Assembly: GCF_054482595.1 (NCBI RefSeq)
Contig: NZ_CM137008.1
Length of the DNA stretch: 64,000 bases
Reading direction: 5' to 3' (one strand)
The notes below the pieces were generated by a model, which had not been told where the DNA came from, did no database searches, and was given only the letters and a program-made list of their open reading frames with translations. Position numbers and translations under genes: made by a program. This document shows, one piece after another, positions 10,642 to 17,477 of this stretch. Positions within the stretch are counted from its first letter, which is position 1, and each line of letters begins with the position of its first letter.

Positions 10642-10692
10642 ACTGTAGCAGTGTTGTATCTCGTATAAACAGGGAACTAAATATGCTGTTAA

Positions 10693-11574
10693 TCATGGGG
10701 CAGCATCATTAGGAGGGTATACATTGACCGATGTACTTACACGATGAAACTCTAGTATGTTGCCAGTATGGTGACCAGGGATAGCTTCAAACACCCCAAG
10801 AAATCGGTACAGTGTCCTGTTCAACTCATCACGAGAATGTGCCATAACAATTCGTTTATCCCAGCGTTCTGTGTATCCCTCATCATCCTTTATATTCCGC
10901 TCTATGATTTTGTTACCATCATCAGTCAATTCATTTCCCCAATCTGAATTTCCATATAGTTTTGGAAACCAAACCATGCATTTTCCTGATAGACCCATTG
11001 CTTCACTTATGTGAGAAGGAATGCTCCAACCGCCAGACTGATGATGTCCTTTGTTGTAACCGAAACAGTTCAAAGCATCCCGGTGGTATCTGAAGACGGC
11101 ATCTGGACCTACAGATATCCTTCCTGCCTTAAGATGAGGACGAGCTGTATATTTATTATCATAATCCCATTCTTTGAATTTTTTATCTTTAATCATTCTA
11201 TTTTTACGATTGCGTATCAACTCAATAAATTCATTGATATAACGATCGAAAATTTCAAGACTTATTTCGCTGGCGGGAATTCTTTTCTCTAAAAATCCTG
11301 TAACTTCAGTAATATCCATACGACGTTTCGCATCATCTATTTGTGATTGCTCACTGTTGTGATGCCCTTCATCAATTTCAAGATAAAGTTCCAGTTGTGG
11401 GAAAAATAAATCTGCCAAATAGATTTTTCCATTTTCTTTTCTGACACATTGCTGGCAGACAAATTCAATGTCGGGATCATTTAAAAGATGATAAATGCGA
11501 GTTACTGCATAATGTTCCCATCGTTTTTTTGAGGTTTTCGTAAGTGAACGTAGGATGTAATCAGTTTTATCCAT
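10693..11574 (-). CDS. Hypothetical protein, 293 aa, AT-rich, inside the satellite-like island
   Basis: Clean ORF; ELYLEIDEGHH and C-terminal KRIVMAH (Rx4H-like) motifs noted but no confident family assignment. Confidence 0.55.
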   Translation of the reverse strand: MDKTDYILRSLTKTSKKRWEHYAVTRIYHLLNDPDIEFVCQQCVRKENGKIYLADLFFPQLELYLEIDEGHHNSEQSQIDDAKRRMDITEVTGFLEKRIPASEISLEIFDRYINEFIELIRNRKNRMIKDKKFKEWDYDNKYTARPHLKAGRISVGPDAVFRYHRDALNCFGYNKGHHQSGGWSIPSHISEAMGLSGKCMVWFPKLYGNSDWGNELTDDGNKIIERNIKDDEGYTERWDKRIVMAHSRDELNRTLYRFLGVFEAIPGHHTGNILEFHRVSTSVNVYPPNDAAP

Positions 11575-11845
11575 TTATATGCCTTCCTTCTTTGTTCTTC
11601 ATGTAATGTGCTTTTTCTTATGGCGATAGTGTTACCTATCGCCATAAGATGCGTTAGTATTTTTTTAATCTAACTGTTTATACTGTTAACTTCGATGATT
11701 TTCTATTTTATATCATGTGGTTAAGCGGTGGTGAGTTGGTGAGGAGTGAAAAGTCGAATCTTCCCCTTTGTGATTTTTGCTCGTTCTGGATCTGCCCGGT
11801 CAGGCGATGTGGTGGGGGGGGGTAAAAAGTTTTTTTAGGTTTTAC

Positions 11846-11937
11846 TGTTCACACTGTTCACCTCTGGTTTTTTATTAATAATTTCATGGTGATACAGGGT
11901 GAAGATACGGTGAAGGGTGAACAGTGGATTGTTCACC
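11846..11937. repeat. Iteron cluster of TGTTCACC octamers in both orientations (P4 ori/crr-like alpha-binding repeats)
   Basis: Full octamers or close variants at 11846-11853, 11855-11862, 11916-11923 (GGTGAACA) and 11930-11937, plus partial GGTGAAG copies at about 11898 and 11909; the last two form a palindrome GGTGAACAgtggatTGTTCACC. Confidence 0.6.
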
Positions 11938-11989
11938 TTGTGGCAATGGCCAGAAAGGAAAAGACCGGCTGTTGCCGGTCTGAGTGAGG

Positions 11990-12565
11990 TTATGTTGCTA
12001 CGGGTTCGTCGCATTTCGGTAGCCAGTCGCCGTAGCTTTCCTCTTTCAGCGACAGATTGGTTTGTATCCCCTGCTTAGTGTGCCGCTTCTCATAATTCAG
12101 GCCGTACTCTTTCAGCATCATGGGCAGCCCCAGCCCGAACATTTTCAGGCTGAGTACGTTCCTATACCCGTTAGCCTCCATATAGGCCAGATACGCGTGA
12201 TAGAGATATTTACGATAATTACGCGGGATGATGCTGGCATTCCCCATAAACATCCCGTTGGTCTGCGGGAGCATTTCCAGATAGCCGCAAAAATCAAACG
12301 TAGGGTCAGCATCGCGCTTGATGCTGAGCGCCTCGTCGGAATTCTGCTGTGACTGGAGCAGTGCGCAGGCTGCCATCGGGTCGCTGAACTTCTGCATGAG
12401 CTGGCGCACAATCACGGCCAGCTCGCGCGCAATTTTATCCCTGAGCTGCGGGTCGCGTTCCTCCGGCGCAATTTGCTCCGGGAAGTGAATAATCACCCGG
12501 CGACGTGACACACCACCGCTGCGGTCGGTGAAGCGCATGGGGTTATTGTTCACTGCCAGAATCAC
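11990..12565 (-). pseudogene. Truncated primase/helicase (P4 alpha-like, D5/SF3 family) C-terminal remnant
   Basis: Frame stays open upstream to about 12670 without a start codon (…LKAITGGDAVSVDPKYQNPYSTHIPAVILAVNNNPMRFTDRSGGVSRRRVIIHF…); far shorter than an intact alpha (~770 aa). Confidence 0.5.
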
Positions 12566-12722
12566 CGCCGGAATGTGTGTTGAGTACGGGTTCTGGTATT
12601 TCGGGTCAACCGAGACCGCATCGCCGCCGGTGATGGCCTTAAGCCCTGCGCCGTCACCGCCGCCGCGTAAAGTACAGGGCTGCTACAGCTCGCCGTTCCG
12701 GCATTAATCAGGAGAGAGACTC

Positions 12723-13289
12723 GTGACCACTGTGACCATACAGCAGGCCTTTGAGGCCTGTCAGACGAACAAAAATACCTGGCTGAAACGTAAAGCCGAA
12801 CTGGCAGACCTTGAACGGGAATACCGTGAACAGCTCCTTGCCGGTGACGAACAAATCCCGCGCAGAATGCAGGATTTGCGCGACAATTTCGACGTGAAAA
12901 AATGGGAGATTAATCAGGCCGCCGGTCGTTATATCCGCTCACATGAGGAAGTGCAGCACATCAGCATCCGCAACCGGCTCCATGACTTTATGCAGTAGCA
13001 CGGCGCGGAGCTGGCCGCCACGCTGGCACCTGAGCTGATGGGGTATAACGAACAGCTTCCCGCAGTAAAACAGAGCGCCATGCAGCACTCGGTTGATTAT
13101 CTGCGTGAAGCCCTGTCGGTATGGCTGGCTGCAGGTGAAAAAATTAATTATTCCGCGCAGGACAGCGATATTTTAACGGCCATCGGATTCAGGCCTGATG
13201 CGGCCTCGCGGGATGATAATCGCCAGAAATTCACCCCGGCACAGAACCTGATTTACACCCGCCGACGTGCAGAACTGGCCGCACGGTAG
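12723..13289 (+). pseudogene. psu: psu-like (P4 polarity suppression protein) gene with one in-frame TAG at 12999..13001
   Basis: ORFs 12723..12998 and 13038..13289 are in the same frame separated by a single amber; N-terminus MTTVTIQQAFEACQTNKNTW resembles recalled P4 Psu; combined length 188 codons. Confidence 0.55.
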
Positions 13290-13690
13290 CACGCAAAAAA
13301 ATCCGCAAAATTCCGCTATTTTTTCCGAAAAAAGCCATGCATCCATAAGGTGCATGGTTTTTCATGCAAATCCCCGTATTTTATTTTCCTCACCGCGCCA
13401 GTACCGGCGCGGCCTGAGCCGGTTCATGCACCTGCATTAAAAGCGACCTCTTAAGCGGGCAGGCGTGGCGGGGAGAGCATTGCGCGCGGAGTGGGTGTTT
13501 TATTTTTTGTATGTCACATAAACTTAAGGTATGCAGTACGTAGCTAGTTTCACTAATACTGGGACGAAAAGAATGGTGCGTTTGTAAAAATGTATTTTAA
13601 TTTTTGGATTGTGATACAGAGTAAATTTCATTTAATTTTGTATTTTAATTGCGGTAAGCTATAACAAACTTGAAAAGGAATTATAATCAC

Positions 13691-15352
13691 ATGAGGTATG
13701 TTGAAAATATGAAAATTCTAGTAACTGCACCTTCAAGAAAAAATCACCCAAAAAATAATGTATTGTATGATTTTATATTGCAACAAGATGATTGGAATGA
13801 TTTTAGTTTTATCACTAAGTATCATTTATACATTACAACGAAACTTACTGGTCTTGATGAAATAGAGTATGCTGGGGTTGTTAAAATTATAAAAAAAGAT
13901 CAGTCTGAAGCTGATTACTACATGGTTGAAGAAGGCGAGTTTTCATATTTGAGTGACGAGTTTTGTTCTGTGGGACAATCTCTTGATTATTATGGGAGGC
14001 TCTCTGAATTGGGGAGTGAAATTTGTGAGGGGATATTGACATCATTACGCGACATTAATATGTTTGATTATGTTTCTGAGGGTTTCAAAAATGAAAGAGC
14101 TTGGGAACGTTCTATCATGAGAGACTTAAATAATGATGATGATATTTTTATTCTTCCAAAGTTTATAATAAAAAATCAGTTCTCGGCTATACCTAGTATA
14201 GACATGAAGTTTTCATTTATGTATTCAGGAATGATTAATACTCTTTCGTTTGATTTCGATTCAATACAATATGGATATTTTGAAAGTGAAAAACTACCAT
14301 GTAGAATGTCCGTAATTGTAGGCCGGAACGGTTGTGGGAAGAGTACAACATTGGCAAGACTTTCTAGGGTTGCTTATTCTTCAACTCAGGACAGAAAAAA
14401 AGAACAGATAGCCAAAATTGGTGAAATTCTTCCAGAGGGATTAGGTTTTCCGAAAATAATCAACCTTTCATACAGTGCTTTTGATAGTTTTCAAATACCC
14501 GGGTGTACTTTTAAAGAAAAGAAACAGCTAAGGCAAGACATACTTGATGGGAAAGGTAGGTATATATATTGCGGAGTCAGGGATGTTGGTGCTGAATTGG
14601 ATTATGTATTGGCTAATGTAGATGAAAACAATATGGATATAGAGTTTATTACATTAGATAGGCAAGAGAGAACCATATTAAAACCTCTTGAAGTACTTAG
14701 TGAAGAGTTTTATGGTGTCTTGATAAAAATACATAAAGATAGTGATAAGTGGAATTTGTTTAATAAAGTGATGATGAAGTTGAGAGAAGAGGTTTCATTA
14801 TCTGAAATTATTGATGAAATCTTTAAAGATGATTTTATTCTTAAATCTAAAGAATATTTTCATAGGTTGAGTACAGGGCATAAATTTGTTTTGCATTCGA
14901 TGGCGCATATTTTGTTGTATATTGAAAAAAGATGCCTTGTTTTATTTGATGAGCCTGAAACTCATTTGCACCCGCCATTGCTTGCGGTTTTAATGAGCGC
15001 TCTGAGAATTGTTTTGAACGAAGTCGATGCTTTTGCTATTGTTGCTACTCATTCACCTGTGGTAGTACAAGAAACATTAAGTAAAAATGTTAATGTTATA
15101 ACTAGAAATGGGGAGTTTACTGATTTTCAACGACCTGAAATTGAAACTTTTGGTGAGAATATTGGAGCAATAACATCATCAGTATTTTCATTAACGACTC
15201 AAATAACTGATTATCATGATGAATTAGACAAGCTAATAATAGAATATAAAAATAATAATAATCCATTAGATGACATTGAAAAATGTTTTGATACAGGTCT
15301 TAGTACACAAGCAAGGTCTTATGTAATATCTAAATTAGCGGTAAAAGGATAA
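13691..15352 (+). CDS. ABC-type (AAA_15/AAA_21-like, SMC/RecF/OLD superfamily) ATPase with ~190-aa N-terminal extension; PtuA-like candidate defence ATPase
   Basis: Walker A VGRNGCGKST, signature-like LSTGHK, Walker B LVLFDEPETHLHP, H-loop ATHSP. AAAGGAA SD before ATG 13691; alternative starts TTG 13670 and ATG 13709. Strongly AT-rich. Confidence 0.8.
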   Translation: MRYVENMKILVTAPSRKNHPKNNVLYDFILQQDDWNDFSFITKYHLYITTKLTGLDEIEYAGVVKIIKKDQSEADYYMVEEGEFSYLSDEFCSVGQSLDYYGRLSELGSEICEGILTSLRDINMFDYVSEGFKNERAWERSIMRDLNNDDDIFILPKFIIKNQFSAIPSIDMKFSFMYSGMINTLSFDFDSIQYGYFESEKLPCRMSVIVGRNGCGKSTTLARLSRVAYSSTQDRKKEQIAKIGEILPEGLGFPKIINLSYSAFDSFQIPGCTFKEKKQLRQDILDGKGRYIYCGVRDVGAELDYVLANVDENNMDIEFITLDRQERTILKPLEVLSEEFYGVLIKIHKDSDKWNLFNKVMMKLREEVSLSEIIDEIFKDDFILKSKEYFHRLSTGHKFVLHSMAHILLYIEKRCLVLFDEPETHLHPPLLAVLMSALRIVLNEVDAFAIVATHSPVVVQETLSKNVNVITRNGEFTDFQRPEIETFGENIGAITSSVFSLTTQITDYHDELDKLIIEYKNNNNPLDDIEKCFDTGLSTQARSYVISKLAVKG

Positions 15353-15357
15353 TACAT

Positions 15358-16203
15358 ATGTGGACACTACCTTTACCAGATGATGCGGATAGAATGAGCG
15401 AGTTATTAACCGCTTTAACGTATAAAAATGGAAATCCTAAGTATGCTTTAACACAAGATGAAAAGGATAAAATTGAAACTATTTATACTTTATATCACGA
15501 TCGTAAAGCAACTCCCTGTGCTGAATTTTTAGCAGAGGAAATAAGTGATGAAACCCAAAATGCTATAAAAACAGCTTATTCAGAAGTGCAAATAAATGGA
15601 CGGCTTTCAACCCTTCGCTCAAGGATTTTATTAAGTTCTAAAAAATGCCCATTATGTGGGATCGAATCATCAACCGACCTAGATCATTATCTTCCCGAAT
15701 CAATATATAAATGTCTCGCAGTATATTCAAGAAACCTGATACCGACCTGTCATAAGTGCAATAATAAAAAAAGAGCTGGTGTAGCAGAAAATGGAGTTGG
15801 ATTTATTCATGTGTATTATTTTGATGAGCCCGATGGTGTATTTTTCGTTGCCAATACTGAAATGATAGATGGTGCTTTAGTAATTGATTTTAATATCAAT
15901 ATGATCGAGGGTATGACTCGAGAGGTATATGATTCATTATGCTTTCAAAATAGAGTTGTTAACCTAAATGAAAGGTTAAAGATGGAAGCGAATGATTTTT
16001 TAGGGGGGCTCTATACTTCACTTGAAGAAACATATAATTCTGCAGGCCAAGAAGGATTAAGATTATTTCTAAAAAGAACTAGGGATGACTATACCAGACG
16101 TTATGGGCTTAATCATTGGAGAAGAGCATTGATAGATAGTCTATCCGATAATGTGGAGTTCCTTGACGCTGGTTTTATTACTGCCTTAGGAACTCCAGAG
16201 TGA
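15358..16203 (+). CDS. HNH endonuclease-fold protein, 281 aa; PtuB-like candidate defence nuclease
   Basis: HNH motif KKCPLCG…DLDHYLPES…N…CHKCNNKK; starts 5 nt after the ATPase stop with AAAGGA SD (translational coupling); ends 2 nt before the convergent integrase. Confidence 0.8.
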   Translation: MWTLPLPDDADRMSELLTALTYKNGNPKYALTQDEKDKIETIYTLYHDRKATPCAEFLAEEISDETQNAIKTAYSEVQINGRLSTLRSRILLSSKKCPLCGIESSTDLDHYLPESIYKCLAVYSRNLIPTCHKCNNKKRAGVAENGVGFIHVYYFDEPDGVFFVANTEMIDGALVIDFNINMIEGMTREVYDSLCFQNRVVNLNERLKMEANDFLGGLYTSLEETYNSAGQEGLRLFLKRTRDDYTRRYGLNHWRRALIDSLSDNVEFLDAGFITALGTPE

Positions 16204-17399: not shown

Positions 17400-17449
17400 G
17401 TCTGGATCCCTTCCATAATTGGTACACGTTTAATGGACCACAGTATAGC

Positions 17450-17477
17450 GTGTACCTAAACGTGTACCAATTTTCTC
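17450..17477. repeat. 28-bp direct repeat, right copy (between integrase and ssrA)
   Basis: Identical to 10614..10641. Confidence 0.8.

What the first reader, a model, noticed from the sequence alone, without database searches (positions are those of the whole stretch)
11846..11937. Cluster of TGTTCACC iterons in both orientations next to the primase remnant
At least four full octamers (TGTTCACA/TGTTCACC and GGTGAACA) plus partial GGTGAAG copies lie within about 95 bp, including a palindromic pair. TGTTCACC is, to my recollection, the alpha-protein binding repeat of P4 ori/crr, which would make this a satellite replication origin relic.
Basis: partly seen in the sequence, partly recalled or inferred. 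Interest (0 to 1): 0.5.

Follow-up and report, generated by a model that had tools for sequence, protein, structure and literature searches.

The report
Orphaned P4-satellite crr iteron cluster
The octamer cluster is the leftover 'cis replication region' (crr) of a broken P4-like satellite prophage sitting next to ssrA in an E. coli chromosome; it is a well-known kind of replication-protein binding site that has lost both its origin and its replication enzyme, so it is real but ordinary.

Summary
Window 11846-11937 holds TGTTCACA, TGTTCACC, GGTGAACA and TGTTCACC, plus GGTGAAGA and GGTGAAGG (P about 2e-9 for four TGTTCAC cores in 92 bp). It is not the origin itself. It is the alpha-proximal 120-bp repeat of the crr of a P4-like satellite (84% identical to P4 4472-5306). 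All five annotated P4 'type 1 repeats' sit at the same positions and orientations. The alpha terminator and the last 223 codons of the alpha primase-helicase gene follow it.

A microhomology deletion removed the rest of alpha, the immunity and hijacking genes, and the real origin. psu and int are pseudogenes. Only 15 of 5,426 complete E. coli genomes carry this remnant, nearly identical to one another.

Intact relatives always pair a crr cluster with an origin cluster 4-5 kb away. Seven of 17 have a single-repeat crr, so the surviving repeat looks complete as a crr, but it is orphaned.

Verdict: a real feature of a known kind, most likely inert. Low interest.

The parts
11823..11942 (+). Alpha-proximal 120-bp crr repeat (the finding). 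Iterons: 11846-11853 TGTTCACA (+), 11855-11862 TGTTCACC (+), 11898-11905 TCTTCACC (-), 11916-11923 TGTTCACC (-), 11930-11937 TGTTCACC (+). There is also a conserved extra half-site, GGTGAAGG, at 11909-11916.
   Evidence: It maps column for column onto P4 crr repeat 2 (4471-4590), with all five annotated type 1 repeats at homologous positions. It is 84% identical to P4 as part of an 837-bp HSP and 94-97% identical to the closest IMG/VR P4-like elements.
11772..11822 (+). Spacer between the two crr repeats; contains a G9 run at 11813-11821.
   Evidence: Alignment A3 maps P4 4411-4470 to this stretch.
11646..11771 (+). Distal crr repeat, degenerate. The five iteron positions now read TGTTTATA, TGTTAACT, GGTGGTGA, AGTGAAAA and TCTTCCCC.
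   Evidence: It is collinear with the distal repeat of L053/L075/L039/L055. None of its five octamers is within 1 mismatch of the consensus, against 5 of 5 in every relative. It carries 17 lineage-specific changes in 105 comparable columns, against 2 in 112 for the proximal repeat (p = 1e-4).
11956..11981 (-). Rho-independent terminator of alpha (t-alpha); stem 11962-11981.
   Evidence: Terminator scan. It aligns to the annotated P4 t-alpha at 4604-4628.
11990..12660 (-). Truncated alpha (primase-helicase) gene: the last 223 codons, including the complete winged-helix origin-binding domain. The longest ORF with a start codon is 191 aa, from a GTG at 12565.
   Evidence: RefSeq annotates it as a pseudogene missing its N-terminus. 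It matches P4 4636-5306. Residues 117-216 match PDB 1KA8 (P4 alpha origin-binding domain), E = 1e-61, about 94/100 identical. NCBIfam primase_Cterm scores below its cut-off.
12644..12660 (.). Deletion junction. The alpha side and the delta/psu side overlap by 9-17 bp of microhomology. The equivalent of P4 5307-10900 is missing.
   Evidence: In some searches the two flanks of the junction match separate places in intact relatives, with overlapping ends. Only 15 of 5,426 genomes have the junction.
12723..13289 (+). psu pseudogene (internal stop).
   Evidence: RefSeq annotation; 73% identical to P4 10901-11623.
13462..13480 (+). cos-like sequence at the position of the P4 genome end.
   Evidence: P4 homology ends at P4 11623 = window 13460. 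There is one 19-mer match with 3 mismatches against 0.02 expected. The cos consensus used was recalled from memory.
13670..16203 (+). Two-gene defence cargo in the psu-int hotspot: an AAA ATPase (13670-15352) and an HNH protein (15358-16203), Septu-like PDC-M01A/B.
   Evidence: PADLOC PDC-M01A E = 1e-99 and PtuA E = 1e-73; PDC-M01B E = 3e-37. The position matches the known P4 hotspot (PMC8628076).
16206..17399 (-). Integrase pseudogene (internal stop).
   Evidence: RefSeq annotation; 83% identical to the integrase of the intact UTME-7 element at the same site.
10614..10641 (+). Left copy of a perfect 28-bp direct repeat (attL-like). Its partner is at 17450-17477, between int and ssrA.
   Evidence: the repeat finder family D3. 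The same sequence borders P4-like elements L055, L119 and UTME-7.
17450..17477 (+). Right copy of the 28-bp direct repeat (attR-like).
10693..11574 (-). AbaSI-family, modification-dependent type II restriction endonuclease gene, inserted between attL and the distal crr repeat.
   Evidence: PADLOC mREase_II E = 4e-122; RefSeq name. The cassette 10642-11659 is found only in the same 15 genomes.

Best explanation
The cluster is the alpha-proximal 120-bp repeat of the cis replication region (crr) of a P4-like phage satellite. The satellite is integrated beside ssrA in an E. coli chromosome and has since been gutted. In a live satellite, the octamers are the sites bound by the C-terminal winged-helix domain of the alpha primase-helicase. 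Alpha bound at crr cooperates, in cis and over about 4.5 kb, with alpha bound to the same octamers at ori to start replication. This mechanism is established knowledge for P4, not tested here. In this window one microhomology-mediated deletion removed ori, the primase and most of the helicase part of alpha, and the genes cI, epsilon, sid and delta. psu and int carry stop codons. The crr is therefore an orphan: a complete-looking set of alpha-binding sites with nothing to activate. It persists because the deletion is recent, while the intact neighbouring defence genes are what the host may still use. The distal crr repeat had already decayed, probably while the element was still active, because one repeat suffices in many natural relatives.
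For: Homology and collinearity with P4 crr, t-alpha and the alpha 3' end are shown. All five P4-annotated type 1 repeats are conserved in position and orientation. Across 17 distinct P4-like crr repeats, the octamers that were not used to retrieve the loci (GGTGAA, GTGAACA, and the 3' TGTTCAC) are among the most conserved columns. The adjacent gene fragment encodes the P4 origin-binding domain solved as 1KA8. P4 against the window finds only crr+alpha' and psu+cos, with no ori. The iteron-cluster scan finds one P4-type cluster in the window, whereas all 17 intact relatives have two, crr and ori, 4-5 kb apart. RefSeq annotates alpha', psu and int as pseudogenes. The junction and the remnant occur in 15 of 5,426 genomes at >=99.6% identity. 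Seven of 17 intact elements have a single-repeat crr and a full-length alpha, including UTME-7 at the same ssrA site. The distal repeat shows 17/105 lineage-specific changes against 2/112 in the proximal repeat.
Against: Nothing contradicts the identification. Three points bear on 'inert'. First, the five proximal iterons and the 100-residue origin-binding domain are essentially unchanged, so the sites could still bind alpha supplied by another P4-like satellite. Second, the eight-fold difference in decay between the two repeats would be odd if both had been neutral for the same time; I attribute it to decay before the deletion, but cannot date it. Third, P4 is reported to have a second origin (ori2) inside alpha (my recollection of Tocchetti et al. 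1999; the paper is not held). I could not check whether ori2 lies in the retained 671 bp.
Confidence: 0.88

Rival explanations
1. The orphan crr, possibly together with the truncated alpha ORF that still encodes the whole origin-binding domain, is a working decoy. It would titrate or compete with the alpha protein of incoming or co-resident P4-like satellites and so interfere with their replication.
For: The proximal iterons are intact. The origin-binding domain is about 94% identical to 1KA8 and lies in an open 191-aa frame. Gene callers call that ORF in many assemblies: the P0001 cluster has 549 members. P4-like satellites are common in E. coli (abstract of PMC8628076). The remnant sits among intact defence genes.
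Against: There is no Shine-Dalgarno sequence upstream of the GTG at 12565 or of the next ATG (direct reading). The only promoter-like site nearby scores 9/12, no better than shuffles. The remnant is a recent clonal deletion with almost no variation, so selection cannot be inferred. Five sites in one chromosomal copy are a weak sink. Short alpha C-terminal 'proteins' in the databases are largely contig-end partials or frameshifted full-length genes.
Confidence: 0.06
2. The retained DNA is still a conditional replicon. If P4's alternative origin ori2, reported to lie inside alpha, falls within the retained 3' 671 bp, then ori2 plus crr would be present in cis and could fire when alpha is supplied in trans.
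For: The crr proximal repeat is intact, and single-repeat crrs exist in intact elements. The existence of an oriII replicon (alpha with internal ori2, plus crr) is my recollection of the P4 literature and was not verified here.
Against: The ori2 coordinates could not be retrieved. The integrase is a pseudogene, so no excision is expected. No evidence was gathered.
Confidence: 0.03
3. The cluster is the P4-type origin itself (ori1), not the crr.
For: The tandem octamer pair also gives a 36-bp, 89% match to P4 ori (9395-9430).
Against: The region is collinear over 837 bp with crr repeat 2, t-alpha and the alpha 3' end. It has neither type 2 repeats nor the six-iteron array. In all intact relatives the ori cluster lies 4-5 kb from the alpha 3' end, and the cluster next to alpha is crr.
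Confidence: 0.01
4. The octamers are a chance cluster, or operators for a host or cassette regulator, for example controlling the divergent restriction-endonuclease gene.
For: The cluster lies about 270 bp upstream of the REase start codon at 11574.
Against: P about 2e-9 for chance. Homologous clusters occur in relatives that lack the REase cassette. The REase upstream region has its own perfect 14-bp palindrome at 11616-11649.
Confidence: 0.01

Closest known systems
crr (cis replication region) of satellite phage P4 (X51522 4291-4590)
   Same: Same position (between att and the alpha terminator), same 120-bp unit, and the same five type 1 octamers in the same order and orientation. It is 84% identical to the alpha-proximal repeat, and a two-repeat layout with a spacer is still recognisable.
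   Different: The distal repeat has lost all five consensus octamers. The spacer is 51 bp instead of 60 bp. A restriction-endonuclease cassette separates it from att. The partners it needs, ori and a full alpha, are gone.
Single-repeat crr of intact P4-like satellites (E. coli UTME-7 at ssrA; IMG/VR loci L048, L052, L057, L074, L118, L119)
   Same: One cluster of about 92 bp with 4-7 octamers directly downstream of alpha, which is functionally what remains here. UTME-7 uses the same ssrA-side attachment site.
   Different: Those elements have a 794-795-codon alpha frame and an ori cluster 4-5 kb away. The window has neither.
P4 ori1
   Same: It uses the same TGTTCACC octamer bound by alpha.
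   Different: ori1 has six closely spaced octamers plus type 2 repeats and lies between the immunity region and sid. No such cluster is in the window.
Accessory iteron clusters of iteron plasmids (for example P1 incA, or the R6K gamma enhancer with distant alpha/beta origins)
   Same: An analogy of mechanism only (my knowledge): a second array of initiator-binding repeats that communicates with the origin through protein-mediated looping.
   Different: There is no sequence or protein homology. P4's initiator is a primase-helicase with a winged-helix domain, and crr is a positive, cis-required site rather than a copy-number brake.

Membership tests
P4-type crr | Sequence homology to the P4 120-bp crr repeat | tested here: met
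   Window 11824-12660 matches P4 4472-5306 at 84.1% over 837 bp, and P4 repeat 1 at 76% over 117 bp. Alignments A1 and A3 support this.
P4-type crr | Location immediately downstream of the alpha terminator, between alpha and the attachment site | tested here: met
   t-alpha lies at 11962-11981, alpha' at 11990-12660 and attL at 10614-10641. A 1-kb REase cassette intervenes before attL.
P4-type crr | Five type 1 octamers (TGTTCACC and one-mismatch variants) per repeat, in the order + + - - + | tested here: met
   Met for the proximal repeat, 5 of 5. Not met for the distal repeat, 0 of 5.
P4-type crr | Two direct 120-bp repeats separated by about 60 bp | tested here: inconclusive
   Two units are present (126 bp + 51 bp + 120 bp), but the distal one is only 76-80% identical to relatives and has no consensus octamer. 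Seven of 17 intact relatives have one repeat, so this feature does not define the wider family.
P4-type crr | Bound by alpha protein through its C-terminal domain | not testable with these tools
   Inferred from identical octamers and from the adjacent 1KA8-type domain. It needs a gel-shift or footprint assay.
P4-type crr | Required in cis for replication from ori | not testable with these tools
   No ori is present in the window, so the function cannot be exercised here.
P4 ori1 | Array of six type 1 octamers with an AT-rich region and type 2 repeats, 4-5 kb from the alpha 3' end | tested here: not met
   There is no match to P4 9086-9809 apart from a 36-bp octamer-pair hit, and only one P4-type cluster in the window.
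Intact P4-like satellite | Core set int, psu, delta, sid, alpA, epsilon and alpha (PMC8628076) | tested here: not met
   Only int (pseudogene), psu (pseudogene) and the last 223 codons of alpha remain. The equivalent of P4 5307-10900 is deleted.

The most novel reading that the evidence does not exclude
The surviving crr repeat and the open 191-codon frame that still encodes the complete alpha origin-binding domain have been kept, along with the flanking restriction and Septu-like genes, as an anti-satellite or replication-interference module. Its action would be to bind or titrate the alpha protein, or the origin, of competing P4-like satellites.
Probability: 0.05. Interest if true: 0.5.

Novelty: already known. 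Interest (0 to 1): 0.12.

Why it matters
It matters little beyond annotation. It shows that a raw-sequence reader can correctly spot P4 type 1 iterons. It also gives precise boundaries for an unannotated crr inside a decayed satellite: RefSeq lists no feature under it. Two small points may interest satellite specialists. First, natural P4-like elements often carry a single-repeat crr, and here the distal repeat decayed about eight times faster than the proximal one, which fits one repeat being sufficient. Second, the flanks of crr (att side here; terminator side in locus L128) can receive cargo genes, outside the described psu-int hotspot.

Tried and rejected
1. Were substitutions aimed at the iterons of the distal repeat? 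Against the whole aligned region the enrichment is marginal and post hoc (7/39 against 13/246, p = 0.01; all five octamers hit, p = 0.015). Within the distal repeat there is no enrichment (7/39 against 10/66, p = 0.45). The repeat decayed as a whole, so I rejected targeted inactivation.

2. Do standalone origin-binding-domain proteins form a family? The homologue search returned many 120-330-aa hits. The largest one checked is a contig-end partial, and a 'primase-like DNA-binding domain' hit in E. coli JNU is a frameshifted full-length alpha. The search is also biased toward fragments that contain the query. This is not evidence for selection.

3. An intact close relative at the same site in ETEC1734 turned out to be degraded by IS elements.

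4. The primary P4 replication papers (Ziegelin 1993, PMC413647; Tocchetti 1999) are not held. A full-text search for the octamer returned only unrelated primer sequences. Statements on alpha binding, looping, ori2 and the sufficiency of one repeat in P4 therefore rest on GenBank feature tables, secondary citations (PMC4234260; PMC2777425) and my own recollection.

5. An Rfam scan of the window found no RNA family in the island apart from tmRNA.

Full report
**Observation**

Window 11846-11937 reads TGTTCACA-c-TGTTCACC ... GGTGAAGA ... GGTGAAGG-GTGAACA-gtggat-TGTTCACC. Pattern searches place TGTTCAC cores at 11846, 11855, 11917 (- strand) and 11930. Only ten other cores occur in the whole 64-kb window on both strands. 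That background rate predicts 0.014 cores in 92 bp, so P(>=4) is about 2e-9. The full octamer occurs 8 times in the window against 1.9 expected from shuffles.

**What the cluster is**

A sensitive blastn against phage records hits only satellite phage P4. The hit covers features annotated there as 'crr (cis required region for replication)', 'crr 120bp direct repeat', 'ori type 1 repeat', the alpha terminator and the alpha gene.

Comparing all of P4 with the window gives two collinear blocks:
- P4 4472-5306 matches window 11824-12660 at 84%. This block covers crr repeat 2, t-alpha and the last third of alpha.
- P4 10901-11623 matches window 12736-13460 at 73%. This block covers psu up to the cos end.

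Mapping the P4 feature table through the alignment shows that all five annotated type 1 repeats of P4 crr repeat 2 have counterparts at the same positions and orientations. The P4 octamers, as read on the + strand, are TGTTCACA, TGTTCACC, GGTGAATA, GGTGAACA and TGTTCACC. The window octamers are TGTTCACA, TGTTCACC, GGTGAAGA, GGTGAACA and TGTTCACC.

The hairpin at 11962-11981 is the alpha terminator. The reading frame at 11990-12660 on the - strand is the C-terminal 223 codons of alpha. Residues 117-216 of that frame match the solved P4 origin-binding winged-helix domain (PDB 1KA8) with E = 1e-61 and about 94 of 100 identical residues.

The finding is therefore the crr, not the origin proper. 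The octamers are the sites that this domain recognises. The recognition itself is taken from the literature: PMC4234260, citing Ziegelin & Lanka 1995 and Yeo et al. 2002.

Four close IMG/VR relatives were retrieved with the tandem-octamer pattern. They are about 92% identical to window 11660-12660 in a single alignment. That alignment shows that 11646-11771 is the distal crr repeat and 11772-11822 is the spacer.

In every relative, and in P4, both repeats carry five octamers within one mismatch of the consensus. In the window the distal repeat carries none. Its five positions read TGTTTATA, TGTTAACT, GGTGGTGA, AGTGAAAA and TCTTCCCC.

I tested whether the changes were aimed at the octamers, and they are not. 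Within the distal repeat 7 of 39 octamer columns and 10 of 66 other columns changed (p = 0.45). The distal repeat as a whole has 17 lineage-specific changes in 105 columns, against 2 in 112 for the proximal repeat (p = 1e-4).

**Context**

The window is E. coli chromosome. It is 100% identical, over window 10400-13700, to strain THO-010 and to several other complete genomes.

The gene order, read leftward from ssrA in window coordinates, is:
- ssrA;
- a 28-bp direct repeat (17450-17477);
- int (pseudogene);
- an HNH protein and an AAA ATPase;
- a cos-like site;
- psu (pseudogene);
- the deletion junction;
- alpha';
- t-alpha;
- the proximal crr repeat, the spacer and the distal crr repeat;
- an AbaSI-family restriction-endonuclease gene;
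- the second copy of the 28-bp repeat (10614-10641);
- ypjA.

The two flanks of the junction at 12644-12660 match separate places in intact relatives, with 9-17 bp of overlap. This indicates a single microhomology deletion of the equivalent of P4 5307-10900. The lost segment held the alpha primase and most of its helicase part, orf106, orf151, epsilon, cI, orf88, ori, sid and delta.

Only 15 of 5,426 complete E. coli genomes carry the junction. The same 15 carry the decayed distal repeat and the endonuclease cassette, all at >=99.6% identity. The remnant is therefore a recent clonal state.

**Comparison with intact relatives**

E. coli UTME-7 carries an intact P4-like element at the same ssrA-side site, with a full-length alpha and all core genes. 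Its crr is a single repeat with the same architecture.

I scanned 17 elements with an open alpha frame of about 795 codons for octamer clusters. Every one has a cluster next to the alpha 3' end, which is the crr. In ten elements that cluster has 8-11 octamers over about 260-390 bp, in nearly all cases ten over about 270 bp. In seven it has 4-7 octamers, over about 90 bp in six of them. Wherever the locus is long enough, a second cluster, the ori, lies 4-5 kb away.

The window has only the crr cluster, plus a chance triple inside ypjA that UTME-7 also has.

In an alignment of 17 distinct alpha-proximal repeats, the octamers that were not part of the retrieval pattern are among the best-conserved columns: GGTGAA, GTGAACA and the 3' TGTTCAC. 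So are an A5/T7 tract and a TTTCA..GTGATA block. The tandem pair is invariant by construction, because it was the retrieval pattern, and is not evidence.

**How it most likely works**

For P4, established knowledge is that alpha binds type 1 iterons at ori and crr through its C-terminal domain, and that crr is needed in cis for initiation at ori about 4.5 kb away. The basis is the GenBank feature tables, secondary citations and my own recollection of Flensburg & Calendar 1987 and Ziegelin et al. 1993. I could not read those two papers.

The window's proximal repeat has everything that natural single-repeat crrs have, so I infer it could still bind alpha. It has no ori in cis and no enzyme, and the element cannot excise because int has an internal stop. 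I therefore conclude it does nothing now.

The faster decay of the distal repeat is best explained by relaxed constraint on a redundant second repeat before the deletion. This is inference.

I found no support for expression of the alpha' frame. There is no Shine-Dalgarno sequence before the GTG at 12565. The only nearby promoter-like site scores 9/12, no better than shuffles.

**Rival explanations**

- *Decoy or interference role* for the orphan crr together with the alpha' domain. It cannot be excluded, but it has no positive evidence. Database 'short alpha' proteins are mostly contig-end partials or frameshifted genes.
- *Conditional ori2-crr replicon.* This depends on where P4 ori2 lies, which I could not retrieve.
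- *ori1, chance, or a host operator.* These are refuted by the collinear homology and by relatives that lack the neighbouring cassette.

**Novelty and verdict**

This is a known element type, the P4 crr, in a common class of mobile element. P4-like satellites occur in a large share of E. coli genomes (abstract of PMC8628076). Here the element is in a degraded state.

Interest is low (0.12).

Noticed in passing
window 10642-11659 (gene 10693-11574, - strand): An AbaSI-family, modification-dependent restriction-endonuclease gene (PADLOC mREase_II, E = 4e-122) lies between attL and crr. In circular P4 this int-alpha interval is said to hold only the att site (PMC8628076). The 1-kb cassette is found only in the same 15 E. 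coli genomes that carry the remnant.
   Followed up: partly
window 11616-11649: A perfect 14-bp inverted repeat (TCTTATGGCGATAG / CTATCGCCATAAGA, 6-bp loop) lies 42 bp upstream of the endonuclease start codon. It is a possible operator or control element of the cassette.
   Followed up: no
window 13670-16203: An intact two-gene defence pair sits in the psu-int hotspot of the dead satellite: an AAA ATPase (PDC-M01A/PtuA-like, E = 1e-99) and an HNH protein (PDC-M01B, E = 3e-37), Septu-like. The cargo has outlived the satellite.
   Followed up: partly
L128 (Logan ERR5917375 contig) 3908-5589: A second truncated remnant has its alpha breakpoint within 2 bp of the window's (window 12658 against 12660). 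It is joined to a different partner (a sid-like gene of the UTME-7 lineage, 4-bp overlap). Both of its crr repeats are intact, and a 185-aa gene is inserted between t-alpha and crr. The coincident breakpoint is unexplained: it could be a recombination hotspot, shared ancestry, or ascertainment through ORF length.
   Followed up: partly
window 10614-10641 and 17450-17477; also 17417-17432: The 28-bp direct repeat that bounds the island lies about 105 bp beyond the ssrA 3' end, past its terminator, rather than inside ssrA. It contains GTGTACC..GTGTACC, and an inverted copy of part of it lies at 17417-17432, likely integrase-binding sites.
   Followed up: no
window 11813-11821: A G9 homopolymer run lies in the crr spacer where relatives read GGTGGAGGG. 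It is a slippage-prone tract of no obvious consequence.
   Followed up: no
window 2593-2668: ARAGORN calls a tRNA with anticodon CAT as tRNA-Met, whereas RefSeq annotates it as tRNA-Ile (ileY-type, lysidine-modified). This is a routine ambiguity.
   Followed up: no
window 8114-8260 (inside ypjA): Three octamers within one mismatch of TGTTCACC lie inside the ypjA autotransporter gene, and they are also present in UTME-7 ypjA. They are coding-sequence repeats unrelated to P4, and they account for much of the octamer excess outside the crr.
   Followed up: partly
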